Shown: piece by piece, positions 47,611 through 53,313 of the stretch
How positions within the stretch are numbered: position 1 is the stretch's first letter
How the letters are laid out: every line of letters starts with the position of its first letter
Virus record (IMG/VR): IMGVR_UViG_3300037153_000557
Coordinates: 1-55,007 of that record
Reading direction: 5' to 3' (one strand)
Origin: a virus
Taxonomy: Duplodnaviria; Caudoviricetes
Length of the DNA: 55,007 bases
Made by a program: the position numbers and the translations under genes
Notes under the pieces: generated by a model
Database searches by the model: none
What the model was told of the DNA's origin: nothing
Seen by the model: only the letters and a program-made list of their open reading frames with translations

Positions 47611-47638
47611 ATACCAGATAATTACCATTATCTTGCTT
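47611..47638. promoter_or_regulatory. dif-like recombination site
   Basis: ATACCAGATAA-TTACCA-TTATCTTGCTT (11-6-11 layout, ATAA-N6-TTAT core). Confidence 0.65.
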
Positions 47639-47656
47639 TCAGAAGGAGGTTTACAA

Positions 47657-48592
47657 ATGGAGCAAGAACTGATATCTGTCTCATCAATTGACTTAGCAGT
47701 AGTAGAAGATGCTACCACCATCAATCTCTGGTTACGCTCGAAAAGAAGTGAGCACACAAAAAAGGCTTATGCAAGGGATATTAAAAGCTTTTATGCCTTT
47801 ATCAAAGTAAAGAGAGAGAAAGAGATAATAGTAGAAAATGTCACCATTAGGAACGTTACTCTAGAGGACATACAGGACTATGCTGAGTACCTAAAAACTG
47901 AACATAAGGAAGTCTCAACACAAGCTCGTAAAATAGCTGCTGTCAAGTCTCTCCTAACTTTTGCTTCTAGGATAAAGTATACTGACTTTAATGTAGGAGC
48001 AGCTCAACAACTGCCAGAAGGAAAAGACAAGCTAGCCCAAAGAATACTCTCTACTAGCCAAGTGCAGAATATTATCTATGAAGCAAGAGATAATAAACGC
48101 AATCATGCCATGCTCTTACTCTTATATGGTAGCGGCATCCGATGTGCTGAGCTATGCGGCCTCCAGTGGGAAGATGTTCAGGAGACTGCTACTGGAGGAC
48201 AGATTACTGTCTTTGGAAAGAGGAGTAAGACGCGTTCTATTCCACTGCATAAAGTTGTTTGGGATGAACTGATTTCTATTCGTCCTCTAGATGCTAAATC
48301 TGAAGACTATGTGTTTCAGTCTCGCAAGCTCACATCACGAAATGAGCAAGAACCTACACGCAAACTTAATGAAGCTCAAGTGTGGAAAATTGTGAAGGGC
48401 TATGCTGAGAAGGCTGGTATCAAGAAAGCATCCACACACTGGTTTCGACATGCTCATGCTACTCATGCCATGGAAAAAGGCGCTCCGCTTCGACTTATTC
48501 AGGAAACGCTAGGACATGCTGATTTGCGTACACCGAGTAGATACCAACATGTCAGGCCTGAATCATCCAGTTCCACCTATCTTGACTTGTGA
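47657..48592 (+). CDS. XerC/D-like tyrosine recombinase
   Basis: SGIR..EL, GKRSK.R, HWFRH..AT, LGH, Y; RBS AAGGAGGT; no arm-binding domain. Confidence 0.92.
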   Translation: MEQELISVSSIDLAVVEDATTINLWLRSKRSEHTKKAYARDIKSFYAFIKVKREKEIIVENVTIRNVTLEDIQDYAEYLKTEHKEVSTQARKIAAVKSLLTFASRIKYTDFNVGAAQQLPEGKDKLAQRILSTSQVQNIIYEARDNKRNHAMLLLLYGSGIRCAELCGLQWEDVQETATGGQITVFGKRSKTRSIPLHKVVWDELISIRPLDAKSEDYVFQSRKLTSRNEQEPTRKLNEAQVWKIVKGYAEKAGIKKASTHWFRHAHATHAMEKGAPLRLIQETLGHADLRTPSRYQHVRPESSSSTYLDL

Positions 48593-48816
48593 ACCGTCCG
48601 CAACTATCGGACACGTGTGGTATACTGGGCTTGCATCGCACAAAGATGTAGGTGGGTCGGCACCGTGATCAACGACGCAAATGGCCTCTCTCAACAAGTA
48701 GCTCTTGAAGTTTTACGCTTCGAGTGAATGTGAGAGAGGCTTTTTGTTGTCACAAATATCTCACAAGGTTCCTAACATGTATTCTATTTGTTGTAATAAT
48801 GTGCTATCATTGTACT

Positions 48817-49101
48817 AACTTTGTTTCTCCAGTCAGGAACCCCATAGCTAAAGCTAGGGGCTTGTGAAGAGGGGGTGATTTCTGCCCATCCAATTTGCAA
48901 GCTCACCTGACCAGACCCAGCCACCAGGAGCAATCCTGACGGGGCTACGTTAGAGACGAATAGATAGGTACCATAGGGTGCGTCCGCCAGCCCGATGCTC
49001 TACGGTCAGTGGTTAAACAGGTGTACAAGGGTTAAGCCAGTGCTGCTGACAGACAAACCGTCTTCTAACTTCGTCGAGGCGAACATCACCTGGGAAACCA
49101 G
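48817..49101 (+). ncRNA. omegaRNA (HEARO-like) with 5' guide from the left flank
   Basis: Recalled hallmark blocks GACCAGAC, GCTACGTT, GGTACC..GGGTGC..GCCAGCCC..GCTCTACG, TAAACAG, CAGTG, GTCGAGGCGAACATCACC; upstream TGnTATCAT. Confidence 0.75.
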
Positions 49102-49287
49102 TGTGGGTTTGTCCGTTCCCACCCAAAAACGGACTCCCCACAAGGGGACAAAGAAGAAAGGAGAGCAAGTGAGTGCTTATGCACAAGACAAGCTGGCTAA
49201 CCGCCCGCCACTTGTCTTCCCCACATCCCATGCATCTAGGGAGCAATTCCTCCCCATGTCTAAAGCCAGGGGTATCCTTGCACAAAT
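48832..49287 (+). mobile_element. non-autonomous IS200/IS605 (IscB-type) element
   Basis: End hairpins CCCCATAGCTAAAGCTAGGGG (48840-48860) and CCCCATGTCTAAAGCCAGGGG (49252-49272); no tnpA or iscB. Confidence 0.8.
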
Positions 49288-49295
49288 GTGAATGA

Positions 49296-49535
49296 GTGAG
49301 CAAAAGAATGCATTTTATCGGTATTAAGTGCGAGACTTGCAATAAGTTAGCCAACACGAAGGACAGCATTGACGATCTACCGAATGGCTGGATCGCTCTG
49401 GTGCAACGAGCCACAAATTTCTTCAGCACAAGTCGTCAAGAGGCTTTGCACTTTTGTTCGATGGCGTGTCTACGGGCTTGGGTCAGAGAACAGGATGCAC
49501 AGCCCAAAGCGGTAGTGGAACGAGCGGGCGAGTGA
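49296..49535 (+). CDS. small zinc-binding protein
   Basis: CETC..HFCSMACL. Confidence 0.55.
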   Translation: MSKRMHFIGIKCETCNKLANTKDSIDDLPNGWIALVQRATNFFSTSRQEALHFCSMACLRAWVREQDAQPKAVVERAGE

Positions 49536-49627: not shown

Positions 49628-50305
49628 ATGAGTGAAGAGCGTAAACCTTGGGAGCAAAATATTGAAGCTGGCGAACCGGACCTGTGGTATGGACGGTTCG
49701 TCAAATATTTGCGCCTAGGATCGAAACGCTCCGTTAATGCCTTGTATGCCAAAGAAGCCAAGGCCGCGAAAAACAGCGAAAAACAGCGAAATTTAGATGC
49801 TGGCGGGGATTGGTATGACATTGAAAAGGCGTGGAATTGGAAGGAAAGGGCAAGGGCTTATGATGAATGGCAGAGGAAAGAAGAAGATAGAATAATTGCA
49901 GAAGAGAAAGATAAGGTACTCAGGTCAGGATTTGCACTTATGCATAAGCGTATCAAAGAACTAGATAGACAGGCCCGTAAGCTTATACAGATGACTAATG
50001 ACGAGCAAAAGATCTGGGTACCGGAAGTGCGAACAGTTATTATGGGAGAAGATAAGTCACAAACTATTGAAAAGCTCACGTTTAATGCTCCGCTATTTAC
50101 AACTATAGACAAAATATTTGATAGCATTGCTAAGGAAACAGGCGAAAGAGTCAAGAAGAAAGATATCACTATAACTGAAATGCCTGCTAGCGTTTACCAA
50201 GGATTTAATCCTGATGAGGATGGAACTGTAACCGATGGTAACGAAGCCTTACCTAATTCAGAACCACAACAAAATACAGGTAACGAAGGACAACAGGCCG
50301 TATAG
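49628..50305 (+). CDS. terminase small subunit
   Basis: F..YL.LG..RS..W..W.W.ERARAYD; upstream of TerL. Confidence 0.7.
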   Translation: MSEERKPWEQNIEAGEPDLWYGRFVKYLRLGSKRSVNALYAKEAKAAKNSEKQRNLDAGGDWYDIEKAWNWKERARAYDEWQRKEEDRIIAEEKDKVLRSGFALMHKRIKELDRQARKLIQMTNDEQKIWVPEVRTVIMGEDKSQTIEKLTFNAPLFTTIDKIFDSIAKETGERVKKKDITITEMPASVYQGFNPDEDGTVTDGNEALPNSEPQQNTGNEGQQAV

Positions 50306-51623
50306 AGCCCTTGGCGGTGCTCTAGAAGCTTGGAAGTCAGGCCATAAAGAGACGCTTCTGTGTGGTCCGGCTGGCACTGGCAAGAGTCGTGCCATTCTTC
50401 AAAAGCTTCACTTCTGTGCGCAAAAATACCCCGGCATGCGCGGCCTCATCACCAGAAAAACACGACATAGCATCTCACAGACAGCTATGGTGACTTTTGA
50501 AAAGAAAGTCTTACCTGCTGGCTGGCTCGACAAATACGTGCATTTCAACACGACTGAGCAACAGTATGAGTATGTGAATGGCTCAATCATTGCTGTTGGT
50601 GGCATGGATAAACCCTCTAAGGTGATGAGTTCCGAGTGGGACATGATTTACCCGCAAGAGGCGACCGAACTGCTAGAAGAGGACTGGCAAGCTCTCACTA
50701 CCAGACTTAGAAATGGTGTGATGCCCTACCAGCAACTCATAGGTGACTGCAATCCCTCCTATCCTAATCACTGGCTCAAGATCCGTTGCGACAAGAAAAT
50801 TACCCGTCTCATCCACTCCAAGCACACAGATAACCCAAGTGTCACGAAAGCTTATCTCGACACGCTGAACAACCTCCAAGGTGTGATGAGGGACCGTCTC
50901 TTGCTTGGCATTTGGGCGGCTGCAGACGGCCTTGTCTACGATGAGTGGAACCCTGCTATCCACATCGTCACGAAAAAGCAACTCATTGACTGGAATATCT
51001 TCCATCCTGATGGGACATTCAACAAGTGGAAAATCAAACGGTTCGTCGCGGGCGTTGACTGGGGATACACAAACCCTGGAGTGATCAATGTGTTTGCGGT
51101 GGACAATGATGATCGGCTTTATCTGCTCAGGGAAGTCTACCGGACGAGGAAAAGGATTGATTGGTGGGTAGAGCAAGCCCAGGCGCTGGACAGGGAATTT
51201 GGGGGAATTGATGAGTGGATATGTGATCCGTCTGAGCCTGCTTATATTTCTGATTTCAGTTCTGTAGGGCTCAACGCCTTTGGAGCTGACAACGATATCA
51301 TACCCGGCGTTGATGCAATGAAAGAGCGGCTAGAGGTGATTGGTGACGGGCGTGCAAGGCTTTATGTCTATGAGTTCTCTTTGCCAGAACGAGACGCGCT
51401 ACGCGACAATGACCACAAACCCGTGTGCTTTGAGAACGAGATCAACGCCTATGTATGGCCTAAGCAGAAGGATGGACAGCCTGTAAAGGAGGTACCTGTG
51501 AAGCTAGAGGATCACAGCCTGGACAATACCCGGTATGTCTGTAAACAGCTCAAAAGTGATAGTAGCATTCATTCTATCGATGTTGATACCGTTAATGCAT
51601 TACAGAGTTACGTAGGATACTAA
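50235..51623 (+). CDS. terL: terminase large subunit (PBSX-like)
   Basis: GPAGTGKS, QEATE, DCNP, DNP, GVDWG, CDPSEP, DHSLD..RY. Confidence 0.92.
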   Translation: MVTKPYLIQNHNKIQVTKDNRPYRALGGALEAWKSGHKETLLCGPAGTGKSRAILQKLHFCAQKYPGMRGLITRKTRHSISQTAMVTFEKKVLPAGWLDKYVHFNTTEQQYEYVNGSIIAVGGMDKPSKVMSSEWDMIYPQEATELLEEDWQALTTRLRNGVMPYQQLIGDCNPSYPNHWLKIRCDKKITRLIHSKHTDNPSVTKAYLDTLNNLQGVMRDRLLLGIWAAADGLVYDEWNPAIHIVTKKQLIDWNIFHPDGTFNKWKIKRFVAGVDWGYTNPGVINVFAVDNDDRLYLLREVYRTRKRIDWWVEQAQALDREFGGIDEWICDPSEPAYISDFSSVGLNAFGADNDIIPGVDAMKERLEVIGDGRARLYVYEFSLPERDALRDNDHKPVCFENEINAYVWPKQKDGQPVKEVPVKLEDHSLDNTRYVCKQLKSDSSIHSIDVDTVNALQSYVGY

Positions 51624-51624
51624 A

Positions 51625-53313
51625 ATGGGGATAGGAAGCTTTATGTCAAACGTTTTCAATGCTGCTCAAGTGGGCTGGCAAGCGGCTCGACGCGCCTATG
51701 ATGAGCCGAACATGGGCAATCAATACCGCTCGTTTTATCGCAGAATAAGTGAGTACGACTTGCTTTGGTCCTACTACAATAGCTCAGCTTTTGATCGTGC
51801 CGCTCGTTTCCTCAACAACCAGATAGCAGGCGGCTATTATGGCCCCTACCTCTGGGATCGCTACAAAGCGAATTACAACCTCTATCGCAATATTCGCTTG
51901 ATCTACAATCCTACCACCCGCTTAGTCAACTTCTATGCTGGCCAAGTCTATCCTGGTGTCCTCTCTGAAGATGGGAGCAAGCTACCTGACGGCGTGCCAC
52001 TGGCTATTCCATTCTCAGATGACACATCACCTGCTCTCAGAAGTGCTATAGCCCAGATTTGGCAGTGGTCAAACTGGCAACAAAAGAAAGCGGTTGAGGT
52101 TCGCTATTGCGCAGCCCTTGGGAGTGTGCTAGTAGAAGTTGAGGATGATCTTGACCGGGGGAAAGTCTGTTTGTCTGTGTGCTGGCCTGGAACTGTGGTA
52201 GATCTCGATCTAGACAATGCTGGCAACGTCAAATCATATACAATAGAGTATTACACGTATGAAGATGGAGTAGGCCAATACAGGTACAAGAAGACAGTTG
52301 ATCAGCAGTATTTCAGGTATTTTAAAGATGACGAGCCTTTTGACTATGGCTACGGAGCTGTAGTCGAAAATCCATATGGGTTTGTCCCTGCTGTGTGGAT
52401 CAAGCATTCAGATATGGGAGGTGATCATGGTGCTCCTGTCATCTCAGGGACAATGGGCAAGATAGATGAGCTGAACAATCTAGCTAGCCATGTGCATGAT
52501 CAAATTCACAAGGTGATCGGGGCTCCTTTGCTCATCTCTTCAAAGTCTAAAATCACCAATCTCTTCAGCACCCAGAAACGCGGCCCGACATCTGATTTCT
52601 TAGAACCTTCTACTGATCAGGAAAGCGTGCTTATGCTGGCCGGGCCTGAGGACGCAAAAGCGCAAACGCTGGCAGGTGACTTGAACTTAGCTGATGCTGC
52701 TCTCCACATGGATCGGATTATCACTGAGATTGAGAACGATCATCCTGAGCTGAGCTTCTACAAAGAGTTGAGAACGATGTCACAAGTCACTGGACCAGGC
52801 GCTCAACGCATGATGGGTGATGTAGAGCAGCTCGTGATAGAGGCTCAAGCTGGCTATGATCTGCAGAATATCAAGCTGTTTCAGATGGCAGTCGCTATGG
52901 CTGGCTTCAGAGCGAATAGTGGCAATTGGGGACCGCTCAACTCACAACAGCAGAAGTTTGCACCGTTCAACCTGGATAGTTATGAGGCTGGTGATTTAGA
53001 GATGGCTATCATGCCGAGGCCTTTGCTCAATTCCACAAAATTGGAGCGTGCCCAGGAGAATTTGGCAATATGGACAGGTGTCCAAGCGGCGGCTAATGCT
53101 GGTGTACCGCTCGAATTTGTGCTAGAGCAAGAGGGATGGACACCACAAGAGCTGAAAAAGCTTGCACAGGCGAAACAGAAGCAAGATCAGGCAGATCAAG
53201 CCAAATTTGAACAGCAGCAGAAGGTGATAGCACAAAACCAACCTTCTCAGGATGGCAACCAACAAGAGCAGAATGATCAGCAGAATAAGCAACCGATAGG
53301 CCAGAAAGGATAG
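51625..53313 (+). CDS. portal protein
   Basis: 562 aa directly after TerL; ENPYGFVP motif. Confidence 0.8.
   Translation: MGIGSFMSNVFNAAQVGWQAARRAYDEPNMGNQYRSFYRRISEYDLLWSYYNSSAFDRAARFLNNQIAGGYYGPYLWDRYKANYNLYRNIRLIYNPTTRLVNFYAGQVYPGVLSEDGSKLPDGVPLAIPFSDDTSPALRSAIAQIWQWSNWQQKKAVEVRYCAALGSVLVEVEDDLDRGKVCLSVCWPGTVVDLDLDNAGNVKSYTIEYYTYEDGVGQYRYKKTVDQQYFRYFKDDEPFDYGYGAVVENPYGFVPAVWIKHSDMGGDHGAPVISGTMGKIDELNNLASHVHDQIHKVIGAPLLISSKSKITNLFSTQKRGPTSDFLEPSTDQESVLMLAGPEDAKAQTLAGDLNLADAALHMDRIITEIENDHPELSFYKELRTMSQVTGPGAQRMMGDVEQLVIEAQAGYDLQNIKLFQMAVAMAGFRANSGNWGPLNSQQQKFAPFNLDSYEAGDLEMAIMPRPLLNSTKLERAQENLAIWTGVQAAANAGVPLEFVLEQEGWTPQELKKLAQAKQKQDQADQAKFEQQQKVIAQNQPSQDGNQQEQNDQQNKQPIGQKG

What the first reader, a model, noticed from the sequence alone, without database searches (positions are those of the whole stretch)
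48800..49295. Orphan IscB-type omegaRNA behind a phage promoter: possible RNA-guided weapon that borrows a host nuclease
Seen: an element of about 456 bp with IS200/IS605 end hairpins and an apparently intact omegaRNA scaffold. It has no iscB or tnpA, only a tail (FLPMSKARGILAQM) overlapping the right end. An extended -10 (TGCTATCAT, 48802-48810) lies 21 bp upstream, giving a 5' guide of about 15 nt (..ACUUUGUUUCUCCA). The right flank begins GTGAA/ATGA. Known: IscB uses a 5' guide taken from the left flank and a 3' TAM matching the right flank, and standalone omegaRNAs acting in trans are reported in Ktedonobacter racemifer. Inferred: host IscB loaded with this RNA would cut the empty allele (..TTTGTTTCTCCA|GTGAA) in the packaging-operon leader of related phages, giving homing or competitor exclusion. 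It may instead be a passive insertion.
Basis: partly seen in the sequence, partly recalled or inferred. Interest (0 to 1): 0.85.

Follow-up and report, generated by a model that had tools for sequence, protein, structure and literature searches.

The report
Gene-less guide-RNA transposon inside a phage
A 460-base mobile element that carries only a Cas9-ancestor (IscB-type) guide-RNA scaffold and no protein gene has recently jumped into a soil phage just upstream of its DNA-packaging genes; it belongs to a known kind of element, and there is no evidence yet that the phage uses it as a weapon.

Summary
Rfam's HEARO model (the IscB omegaRNA) matches 48832-49089 over its full length at 122.4 bits (cut-off 83). 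Similar hairpins sit at both ends. The 55-kb phage record has no iscB and no tnpA.

The element is 460 bp, not 456. About 40 related copies are conserved through TGATGA, which puts the right edge at 49291|49292 or 49293|49294. The "FLPMSKARGILAQM tail" is the right-end hairpin read as protein.

It belongs to an ORF-less, PATE-like lineage of ISC/IS605 elements. One Chloroflexota MAG (G001) has 57 HEARO hits, and 44 of them have no adjacent IscB. Their omegaRNAs covary strongly. IscB and Y1 TnpA genes lie elsewhere in that genome.

Short contigs from two other soil metagenomes carry identical stretches of the element in different flanks, so the insertion looks recent. None of 15 related phage loci has a HEARO. 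No empty allele was found anywhere.

Promoter-like motifs lie upstream, but transcription in the phage is not shown.

The best reading is a selfish insertion whose RNA could recruit a host IscB to keep itself in place. The phage-weapon idea stays untested, at about 0.1. The element is a new member of a known kind.

The parts
47633..48592 (+). tyrosine integrase gene (context: the phage is temperate)
   Evidence: Pfam Phage_integrase 3.2e-32 and N-terminal SAM-like domain
48683..48749 (+). long hairpin followed by CTTTTTGTTG: a probable intrinsic terminator after the integrase gene
   Evidence: MFE -28.3 kcal/mol, z -3.91, 0 of 200 shuffles fold as well. The simple terminator scan did not list it; my reading is that its large internal loop exceeds that scan's loop limit
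48772..48800 (+). sigma-70-like promoter match, CTAACA-17 nt-AATAAT with TG before the -10
   Evidence: 9 of 12 consensus positions; prediction only
   Evidence: sequence. The same motif class lies upstream of 15 of 39 G001 copies. Function not shown
48811..48831 (+). left flank; it would form the 5' guide of the omegaRNA if transcription starts upstream
   Evidence: position relative to the scaffold. The 16-mer 48816-48831 matches only itself in the window; one 3-mismatch hit is at chance level
48832..49291 (+). ORF-less ISC/IS605-type (PATE-like) element, 460 bp; alternative reading 48834-49293 inserted in GT|GA
   Evidence: Left edge. Right edge. GC 0.535 against 0.435 in the left flank. 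Whole-element homologues in G001: 79% over query positions 26-450 and 76% over 1-450
48832..49102 (+). IscB-type omegaRNA scaffold: the HEARO model region 48832-49089 plus a terminal CTGG-GAAA-CCAG hairpin at 49089-49100
   Evidence: 122.4 bits, full model. The terminal hairpin is kept through compensatory variants in both IscB-linked and ORF-less copies. 95.5% of cells are paired and 23 of 60 pairs covary in 37 ORF-less copies
48840..48860 (+). left-end subterminal hairpin, which is also helix 2 of the omegaRNA
   Evidence: z -2.26. An exact 25-mer is shared with more than 120 places in many phyla
48866..48899 (+). lineage-specific hairpin insert in the second stem-loop (28 extra bases relative to the Rfam model)
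   Evidence: *[28]* insert. Shared with G001 copies L285, L296 and L307 and with copies in G003 and G196
49111..49148 (+). two small hairpins typical of the ORF-less lineage; read on the minus strand they look like a terminator
   Evidence: fold; not better than shuffles, z -0.84. (minus-strand terminator-like site 49148-49135 plus T-run). Conserved in L126 and L179
49252..49272 (+). right-end subterminal imperfect hairpin
   Evidence: The identical 21-mer is printed in G001 copies L278, L283, L288, L289, L302 and L304. Its fold energy alone is not above shuffles (z 0.31)
49292..49295 (+). ATGA: the family's target site and so the presumed TAM. In the other reading the target halves are GT at 48832-48833 and GA at 49294-49295
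   Evidence: 15 G001 copies end ...GATGA followed by unrelated sequence (my reading of the print). ISC targets N|ATGA, GT|GA and GT|GG are described in Kapitonov 2016
49296..49535 (+). first downstream ORF (79 aa, Cys-rich; the real start may be the ATG at 49308), followed by TerS 49628-50305, TerL 50235-51623 and portal 51625-53313
   Evidence: Terminase_3 8.7e-13; PHROG small terminase 6.9e-06; PHROG portal 1.5e-06

Best explanation
It is a 460-bp non-autonomous, protein-less (PATE-like) member of the ISC/IS605 transposon superfamily. Its cargo is a complete IscB-type omegaRNA.

Inferred history: a host Y1 TnpA supplied in trans moved it as single-stranded DNA into the family's target site (ATGA, or GT|GA). 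The site lies in the leader between the integrase terminator/promoter region and the packaging operon of a temperate tailed phage from soil. The insertion was probably recent and probably happened in a Ktedonobacteria-like Chloroflexota host that holds dozens of such elements.

Inferred working: the element has no promoter of its own upstream of the guide. It is transcribed from the phage promoter as the 5' part of the packaging-operon leader. The roughly 15-25 flank bases before GUCAGG become the guide. In a cell that makes a compatible IscB, the RNP would cut the element-free junction (left flank followed by the target motif). Recombination with an element-bearing copy would then restore or copy the element. 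That serves the element's own retention, with conversion of element-free co-infecting genomes as a side effect.

Shown here: identity, boundaries, family, copy number and structural constraint in related genomes, and absence of the nuclease and transposase from the phage. Not shown: transcription, the host, IscB loading and cleavage.
For: RNA identity: full-length HEARO hit of 122.4 bits against a cut-off of 83.

Ends and target:
- The LE and RE hairpins are 86% alike.
- The 5'-GTCA ... TGAATGA-3' ends match the ISC consensus 5'-GTCA ... CGATGA-3' and its targets (passages of PMC4810608).
- 15 G001 copies end in GATGA.

ORF-less lineage:
- L179 has both ends and no ORF.
- G001 has 57 HEARO hits at or above the cut-off. 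By my comparison of the coordinates, only 13 of them abut an IscB match.
- Whole-element matches to G001 reach 79% and 76%.
- The window's omegaRNA is 83% identical to the nearest ORF-less copy and 74% to the nearest of 11 IscB-linked copies.

Structural constraint within ORF-less copies:
- 95.5% of cells are paired.
- 23 of 60 pairs show changes on both sides.
- 0 of 500 shuffles reach any of the measures, and slid controls give 3-16 pairs.

Helpers available in trans: IscB in 4 of 4 genomes (G001-G004) and Y1_Tnp in 4 of 4 genomes (G001, G002, G003, G196).

Recent and multi-copy elsewhere:
- Run X2 contig, 48835-48983, 0 differences.
- Run X3 contig, 49033-49296, 0 differences.
- Seven X2 contigs have differing sequence just before 48832.

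Lineage-specific in the phage: 0 of 15 related loci have a HEARO. GC is 0.535 against 0.435 in the left flank.

Upstream signals: a terminator-like hairpin and promoter-like sites.

Known mechanism: PATEs that encode omegaRNAs acted on in trans, and TnpB/IscB cutting of the donor joint, are described in passages of the Meers et al. preprint.
Against: - No empty allele or excision joint was seen, so even the insertion event is inferred from family comparison.
- The host is not identified. TerL relatives in 401 Chloroflexota genomes and in 169 genomes of G001's class reach only 45% and 43% identity.
- No IscB-linked omegaRNA of the same sub-lineage was found. The 5 P2-insert copies in G001 and G003 are all ORF-less. 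The nearest IscB-linked RNA is only 74% identical. Cross-loading is therefore assumed.
- The promoters are consensus matches only.
- The RNA contigs of run X4 are 96-98% alike, not identical, and do not include the phage flank. They show at most that relatives are transcribed somewhere.
- Covariation counts sequences rather than events, and could partly predate loss of the ORF.
- A near-identical, recent insertion would look intact whether or not it does anything in the phage.
Confidence: 0.7

Rival explanations
1. Inert hitch-hiker. The element transposed into a prophage or replicating phage and has no activity there. Either it is not transcribed with a usable guide, or the phage's hosts lack a compatible IscB. 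It is simply too young to have decayed.
For: Stretches identical to contigs in other soil metagenomes imply a very recent insertion. No same-sub-lineage IscB was found. The promoters are only predicted. 0 of 15 related phage loci carry a HEARO.
Against: ORF-less copies keep the omegaRNA fold through compensatory changes. That would be unexpected if the RNA were useless once the ORF is lost. IscB genes were found in all 4 genomes searched for them (G001-G004), each of which also holds HEARO elements. The element points the same way as the operon, behind a terminator and promoter-like sites.
Confidence: 0.2
2. Phage weapon or gene drive. The phage benefits. Its promoter-driven orphan omegaRNA loads a host IscB, which cuts the packaging-operon leader of related element-free phages, excluding or converting competitors.
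For: The geometry fits. A flank-derived guide lies next to the family's target motif in the empty junction. The element is co-oriented behind promoter-like motifs. 'Non-restorative homing' into co-infecting phages or plasmids is put forward as theoretically possible, with a plasmid example, in the review PMC13565253 (passages).
Against: No target allele is known to exist. The same promoter-proximal arrangement is common for chromosomal copies: 15 of 39. Nothing therefore points to phage-specific adaptation. The insertion is recent and unique to this phage among those seen. The guide matches nothing else in the phage.
Confidence: 0.08
3. Leader RNA with a regulatory effect. The 460-nt structured insert changes expression of the packaging operon through processing, stability or attenuation, and is kept for that reason.
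For: It lies between promoter-like sites and the first ORF of the operon. The region folds strongly (-119 kcal/mol, z -2.1).
Against: No plus-strand terminator lies within it. Its sequence and fold are those of a mobile family found in many unrelated contexts. Relatives of the phage manage without it.
Confidence: 0.02

Closest known systems
ISC (IscB) transposons of the IS605 superfamily, with the HEARO RNA (Rfam RF02033); Kapitonov, Makarova & Koonin 2016, PMC4810608 (passages read)
   Same: 5'-GTCA start, subterminal imperfect hairpins at both ends...TGA(A)TGA right end with an ATGA or GT|GA target, no target duplication, and a full-length HEARO/omegaRNA at the left end.
   Different: There is no iscB gene. 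About 1.3 kb of coding sequence is replaced by about 150 nt with two small hairpins. Full-length relatives such as L178, L182 and the Microcoleus loci start IscB 215-252 nt from the left end.
PATE-like protein-less IS200/IS605 derivatives that encode omegaRNAs and must be acted on in trans (Meers et al. preprint 10.1101/2023.03.14.532601, passages)
   Same: No protein gene, both transposon ends, a guide-RNA scaffold, dependence on TnpA and on a nuclease encoded elsewhere, and many copies per genome.
   Different: The discussion sentence read there speaks of TnpB proteins acting in trans on PATE-encoded omegaRNAs in Geobacillus. The element here has an IscB-type RNA with a 5' guide, so it needs an outside promoter, and it sits in a phage.
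[quoted passage not shown] 2021). That paper is not held.
   Same: An omegaRNA without an adjacent IscB, in a genome lineage that also holds IscB. G001 appears to share a class with Dictyobacter (G004), because G004 appears in the 'class of G001' set.
   Different: The copy here is on a viral contig.
Virus-associated HEARO/IscB systems (Goltsman et al. 2022, PMC9755519, passages)
   Same: HEARO elements occur on viral or prophage fragments; the paper says over 16% of HEARO-encoding fragments. My own IMG/VR pattern scan found 14 IscB-linked HEARO stretches and 4 loci with ORF-less ones.
   Different: That paper concerns nuclease-encoding loci. The phage copy here has the RNA only.
Homing endonuclease marker exclusion in T-even phages, and 'transposon non-restorative homing' (review PMC13565253, passages)
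   Same: If a host IscB is loaded, the element-free allele of a co-infecting phage would be cut and repaired from the element-bearing genome.
   Different: The nuclease would be borrowed from the host and the specificity would come from a flank-derived RNA. Nothing here shows that this happens.

Membership tests
HEARO / IscB-type omegaRNA (Rfam RF02033) | Covariance-model score at or above the curated gathering score, over the whole model | tested here: met
   122.4 bits against 83, model positions 1-211 of 211, E 6.9e-25
HEARO / IscB-type omegaRNA (Rfam RF02033) | Helices supported by covariation in close relatives | tested here: met
   37 ORF-less copies including the window: 95.5% of cells paired, 23 of 60 pairs with changes on both sides, 0 of 500 shuffles as high, slid controls 3-16. 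The terminal hairpin has compensatory variants
HEARO / IscB-type omegaRNA (Rfam RF02033) | Adjacent ORF with RuvC and HNH domains (IscB), starting at the 3' end of the RNA | tested here: not met
   No IscB match in the record at E<=1. No significant tblastn hit in 48800-49400. The same is true of 44 of 57 HEARO hits in G001, so this feature is not universal in the family
HEARO / IscB-type omegaRNA (Rfam RF02033) | Forms an RNP with IscB and guides DNA cleavage next to a TAM | not testable with these tools
   Needs biochemistry
ISC/IS605-superfamily non-autonomous element (PATE-like) | Subterminal imperfect palindromes at both ends, with no terminal inverted repeats | tested here: met
   The RE 21-mer is identical to that of six G001 copies
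ISC/IS605-superfamily non-autonomous element (PATE-like) | Family termini and 4-bp target (5'-GTCA ... (C)GATGA-3'; N|ATGA or GT|GR), with no target-site duplication | tested here: met
   GTCAGG at 48832 and TGAATGA at 49289-49295. The flanks CTCCA and GTGAG are not duplicated. Family comparison and literature. Which of the two cut models applies is unresolved
ISC/IS605-superfamily non-autonomous element (PATE-like) | Many copies with unrelated flanks | tested here: met
   39 G001 copies share the first base and differ upstream. Seven X2 contigs diverge before 48832
ISC/IS605-superfamily non-autonomous element (PATE-like) | No protein-coding gene; transposase supplied in trans | tested here: inconclusive
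   Absence of genes. Y1_Tnp is present in 4 of 4 candidate-lineage genomes. The phage's host is unknown and mobilisation was not observed
ISC/IS605-superfamily non-autonomous element (PATE-like) | Occupied and empty alleles of the same site | tested here: inconclusive
   No relative shares the region. The flank strings are absent from IMG/VR. There are no joints in the laid runs
RNA-guided transposon homing (TnpB/IscB retention, Meers et al.) | Guide equals the flank and the TAM equals the transposon target, so the empty junction is the target | tested here: met
   Met by geometry only:
RNA-guided transposon homing (TnpB/IscB retention, Meers et al.) | A cognate nuclease expressed in the same cell, with cleavage of the empty site | not testable with these tools
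   Host unknown. No same-sub-lineage IscB-linked RNA was found

The most novel reading that the evidence does not exclude
A phage carries a guide-only selfish element. Transcribed from the late/packaging promoter, the orphan omegaRNA commandeers a chromosomal IscB of the host and cuts the element-free leader of co-infecting relatives. It thereby acts as an RNA-programmed gene drive or exclusion device between phages without encoding any nuclease. A related possibility: ORF-less omegaRNA elements in general survive mainly where a captured promoter expresses their guide. That would explain the excess of forward extended -10-like motifs upstream of chromosomal copies (15 of 39, against 5 of 39 on the reverse strand and 3 of 20 for IscB-linked copies).
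Probability: 0.1. Interest if true: 0.8.

Novelty: new member of a known kind. Interest (0 to 1): 0.4.

Why it matters
Guide-RNA-only derivatives of IscB transposons are known from bacterial chromosomes, and IscB/HEARO loci are known on viral fragments. This is a clean, apparently fresh example of the RNA-only form inside an almost complete phage genome. It sits exactly where a phage promoter would supply the 5' guide.

That makes one question testable with a defined substrate: can such RNAs borrow a nuclease in trans, and does that bias inheritance between co-infecting phages? If the answer is no, the finding is an ordinary transposon insertion into a temperate phage.

The comparison with about 40 chromosomal copies adds two points. 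The ORF-less lineage keeps its RNA fold by compensatory change. It also tends to sit behind promoter-like motifs. Both bear on whether stand-alone omegaRNAs are functional.

Tried and rejected
Empty-site search:
- The closest phage relatives (L003-L019, TerL 50-78% identical) share no DNA upstream of about 49800. Their small ORFs are not syntenic. The 15 of them scanned with Rfam have no HEARO.
- Exact strings from the right flank and the left flank found nothing in IMG/VR.
- blastn against 50,697 phage records found nothing.
- The laid runs X1-X4 gave cover only inside 48831-49296 and no joints. The lack of cover on the flanks, even in the probable source run X1 (58% read), proves nothing.

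Host search:
- There are no tRNAs.
- TerL reaches only 45% identity in 401 Chloroflexota genomes and 43% in the 169 genomes of G001's class.
- The count of 54 of 169 genomes matching the element includes the unpublished genome G484.

Closer element copies:
- The window's 43-mer is absent from IMG/VR.
- The P2-insert 28-mer is absent from JGI metagenomes.
- A 26-mer at the 3' end of the RNA gave 5 contigs that are only about 72% alike overall. Three of them showed IscB matches by tblastn.

iscB relic hypothesis: rejected. The tail is the RE hairpin, and the interior matches only ORF-less copies, for example L227 at 89% over 160 nt.

Element-borne promoter, suggested by TGTGCTATC being shared with L126: rejected. 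Upstream sequences of 39 copies are unrelated.

IMG/VR HEARO core pattern: 10 of its 28 hits were false positives in coding DNA.

The neighbours of the 4 viral loci with ORF-less HEARO gave no common context.

The review and the papers searched gave no described case of an ORF-less omegaRNA in a phage. These three word searches do not prove absence.

The empty-site alignments of Kapitonov 2016 (Figs S2, S4-S6) and Supplementary Fig. 15 of Goltsman 2022 could bear on the cut model and on viral HEARO, and were not seen. Altae-Tran 2021 is not held. Weinberg's original HEARO description is recalled only.

Full report
WHAT IS THERE.
The window is a whole IMG/VR virus record of 55,007 bases, linear, with a CheckV completeness of 93%. 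It is a tailed, temperate phage. It encodes a major head protein, a tape measure, a minor tail protein, primase/helicase proteins, a tyrosine integrase (47633-48592), a small terminase (49628-50305), a large terminase (50235-51623) and a portal protein.

Between the integrase and the packaging genes, Rfam's HEARO model matches 48832-49089 on the plus strand. HEARO is the RNA now called the IscB omegaRNA. The score is 122.4 bits against a cut-off of 83, the E-value is 6.9e-25, and all 211 model positions are matched. It is the only Rfam hit in the record.

Two similar hairpins lie near the ends, at 48840-48860 and 49252-49272. They are 86% alike. The record holds no IscB and no Y1 transposase.

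BOUNDARIES.
The left edge is firm. Homology to the closest copies begins at 48831/48832. I fetched 40 ORF-less copies from one genome, G001, and 37 of them start GTCAGGAA at the expected base. Adding L126 and L179 gives 39 copies with completely unrelated upstream sequence. In soil run X2, seven contigs diverge exactly before 48832.

The right edge needs correcting. I read the printed tails by eye. Fifteen G001 copies end ...CCTTGCACAAA(T)C-TGATGA and are followed by unrelated sequence. Three more prints were cut off. Other sub-families end ...ATGG (7 copies)...GGTAG (4) or ...GGTGA (1). Twelve copies were not resolved by my script. The window reads ...CCTTGCACAAATG-TGAATGA and ends at 49295.

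Kapitonov et al. (PMC4810608, passages) describe ISC elements with a 5'-GTCA ... CGATGA-3' consensus. Some are inserted as N|ATGA, others in the middle of GT|GA or GT|GG. Applied here, the element is either 48832-49291 followed by ATGA, or 48834-49293 inside GT|GA. Either way it is 460 bp. I could not decide between the two models without an empty site.

NO iscB RELIC.
Full-length relatives with the same left end include L178 (432 aa), L182 from Dictyobacter aurantiacus (448 aa) and several Microcoleus loci (438-441 aa). Their IscB starts 215-252 nt from the left end, directly after a small terminal hairpin that lies beyond the Rfam model.

That hairpin is CTGG-GAAA-CCAG in the window, at 49089-49100. 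It is kept through compensatory variants in both IscB-linked and ORF-less copies: CCGG/CCGG, CTGC/GCAG, CCGT/ACGG, CCTA/TAGG and CCCC/GGGG.

After the hairpin the window has two small hairpins and then the right end. There is no significant protein similarity to IscB. The "FLPMSKARGILAQM tail" is the right-end hairpin read in one frame. The IscB of L182 happens to read through its own right end and ends ...LLPMHECRGIRALEKR.

The interior matches only other ORF-less copies, for example L227 at 89% over 160 nt.

THE FAMILY.
The exact 25-mer of the left hairpin occurs in more than 120 places across many phyla, so it says nothing about the host. By whole-element similarity the nearest copies are in G001, a MAG labelled 'uncultured Chloroflexia'.
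- L126 and L179 are about 80% identical over 48832-49146.
- G001:C11:192056-192482 is 79% identical over query positions 26-450 of the 460-bp element.
- G001:C8:550512-550945 is 76% identical over query positions 1-450.
- G196 reaches 81% over the first 318 positions.

The named Dictyobacter genome G004 appears in the 'class of G001' search set. G001 is therefore probably a member of the Ktedonobacteria in GTDB terms. This is an inference.

G001 has 68 HEARO matches, 57 of them at or above the cut-off. It has 25 IscB matches, of which I count 10 as near full length. Comparing coordinates by hand, 13 of the 57 HEARO hits abut an IscB match and 44 do not.

Three further genomes (G002, G003, G004) also hold both HEARO and IscB. 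G001, G002, G003 and G196 all hold Y1 transposase genes.

The ORF-less RNAs form a lineage of their own. Each is 79-100% identical to its nearest ORF-less neighbour, but only 60-78% identical to the nearest of the 11 IscB-linked RNAs I could parse. The window's values are 83% and 74%.

Within 37 ORF-less copies including the window:
- the fold is kept in 95.5% of cells;
- 23 of 60 pairs show changes on both sides;
- no shuffle out of 500 reaches any measure;
- slid controls give 3-16 such pairs.

These counts are of sequences, not events. Even so, they argue that the RNA stays under structural constraint after the ORF is lost.

The window shares a lineage-specific 28-base hairpin insert with three G001 copies, two G003 copies and five G196 copies. 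The five copies in G001 and G003 have no IscB beside them. I did not search G196 for IscB.

HOW RECENT, AND IN WHICH PHAGES.
None of the 15 closest phage loci scanned has a HEARO. The element's GC content is 0.535, against 0.435 in the left flank and 0.468 for the whole record.

Short contigs from two independent soil runs carry stretches identical to the window. One in X2 covers 48835-48983 with 0 differences. One in X3 covers 49033-49296 with 0 differences. None of these runs covers the phage flanks.

So an essentially identical element is present, in several contexts, in soil organisms. The phage copy looks like a recent insertion. I saw no empty allele and no excision joint.

The element type is not unique to this phage. 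An IMG/VR scan with a HEARO core pattern gave 28 stretches:
- 14 are next to IscB;
- 4 loci are true ORF-less HEARO (L310, L318, L334, and L322 with two copies in tandem; Rfam scores 103-132 bits);
- 10 are false positives.

Goltsman et al. report that over 16% of HEARO-encoding fragments look viral or prophage-derived (PMC9755519, passages).

EXPRESSION SIGNALS.
A strong hairpin followed by CTTTTTGTTG lies at 48683-48749. Its energy is -28.3 kcal/mol with z -3.9, and 0 of 200 shuffles fold as well. It looks like the terminator of the integrase unit.

Two promoter-like sites follow:
- CTAACA-17-AATAAT with TG, at 48772-48800;

Either would give a 5' leader of about 15-25 bases before GUCAGG. 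One characterised HEARO nuclease prefers 24-base spacers (PMC9755519, figure legend). No plus-strand terminator was found inside the element. Read-through into the packaging genes is therefore plausible.

All of this is prediction. A soil metatranscriptome (X4) holds contigs that are 96-98% identical to parts of the RNA, but they do not carry the phage flank. At most this shows that relatives are transcribed somewhere.

The arrangement is typical of the family rather than of the phage. In G001, 15 of 39 ORF-less copies have a forward TGnTAnnnT within 70 nt upstream, against 5 of 39 on the reverse strand. Shuffles give 3.3 +/- 1.7, and 0 of 2000 reach 15. The Fisher test of forward against reverse gives p = 0.018. 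Among IscB-linked copies the count is 3 of 20, and the Fisher test against ORF-less copies gives p = 0.08. I had no genome-wide background for leader regions, so this remains an observation.

MECHANISM.
Passages of the Meers et al. preprint state three relevant things. TnpA excision leaves a scarless donor joint. TnpB or IscB with a flank-derived guide cuts that joint, so recombination restores the element. PATE-like elements often encode omegaRNAs that must be served in trans. They also note that the conserved region upstream of iscB is bounded by the transposon's RE. This fits the geometry here, in which the target motif lies on the 3' side of the guide match.

By that logic, the window's RNA would recognise the element-free junction, if it is transcribed with its flank and loaded on a compatible IscB. 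This serves the element first of all. Conversion or killing of element-free co-infecting phages would be a side effect. The 2026 review PMC13565253 calls that 'non-restorative homing'. It treats it as theoretical for phages and gives a plasmid example.

I put about 0.9 on the identity of the element. I put about 0.45 on its RNA actually working with a host IscB. I put about 0.1 on a benefit to the phage.

VERDICT.
The element is a new member of a known kind, a PATE-like ISC element or stand-alone omegaRNA, found in a phage.

The guide matches nothing else in the phage.

Noticed in passing
G001 loci L270-L309 (70 nt upstream of each copy): Forward-strand extended -10-like motifs (TGnTAnnnT) lie upstream of 15 of 39 ORF-less omegaRNA copies. 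The reverse strand has 5 of 39, shuffles give 3.3 +/- 1.7, and IscB-linked copies have 3 of 20. Many of the motif ends fall 22-35 nt before the element. This may reflect insertion into 5' leaders, or better survival of copies whose guide is transcribed.
   Followed up: partly
L298, L299, L302, L303, L305, L307 (alignment A2, columns 220-270): Six G001 copies carry the same palindromic insert of about 50 nt inside the GTTAAACAG hairpin of the omegaRNA. It looks like a tiny nested element or an expansion segment.
   Followed up: no
L322:12035-12518 (minus strand): There are two HEARO RNAs in tandem on a 40-kb viral contig (130.6 and 130.2 bits). The second element begins 31 nt after the first RNA ends, so one element inserted into another.
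   Followed up: partly
L310, L318, L334 (IMG/VR contigs): Three further viral contigs hold ORF-less HEARO copies. L318 has a hairpin insert at the same place as the window's lineage-specific P2 insert, with similar sequence (my reading of the print), and is 81% identical to the window over 208 nt. Neighbouring genes gave no common context.
   Followed up: partly
window 49135-49148 and T-run, minus strand: A terminator-like hairpin (TCCCCTTGTGGGGA followed by GTCCGTTTTT) reads on the strand opposite to the omegaRNA. It is conserved in the ORF-less relatives. It could stop antisense transcription into the RNA.
   Followed up: no
G001 right ends (print): ORF-less copies in one genome fall into at least three right-end/target classes...GATGA (15 copies)...ATGG (7) and ...GGTAG (4). 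The left-end hairpins differ to match, which suggests several TnpA specificities or sub-families side by side.
   Followed up: partly
window 48724-48736 and 49288-49300: A 13-mer, GTGAATGTGAGAG, in the terminator hairpin resembles the right junction GTGAATGAGTGAG (85%). It is probably chance (family D6).
   Followed up: no
window 50235-50305: The small-terminase ORF and the longest large-terminase ORF overlap by 71 bases. The real TerL start may be further downstream.
   Followed up: no
L304 (G001:C8:245202-245916), alignment A2 columns 288-320: A run of about 33 A interrupts one omegaRNA copy. This may be an assembly artefact or a simple-repeat expansion.
   Followed up: no
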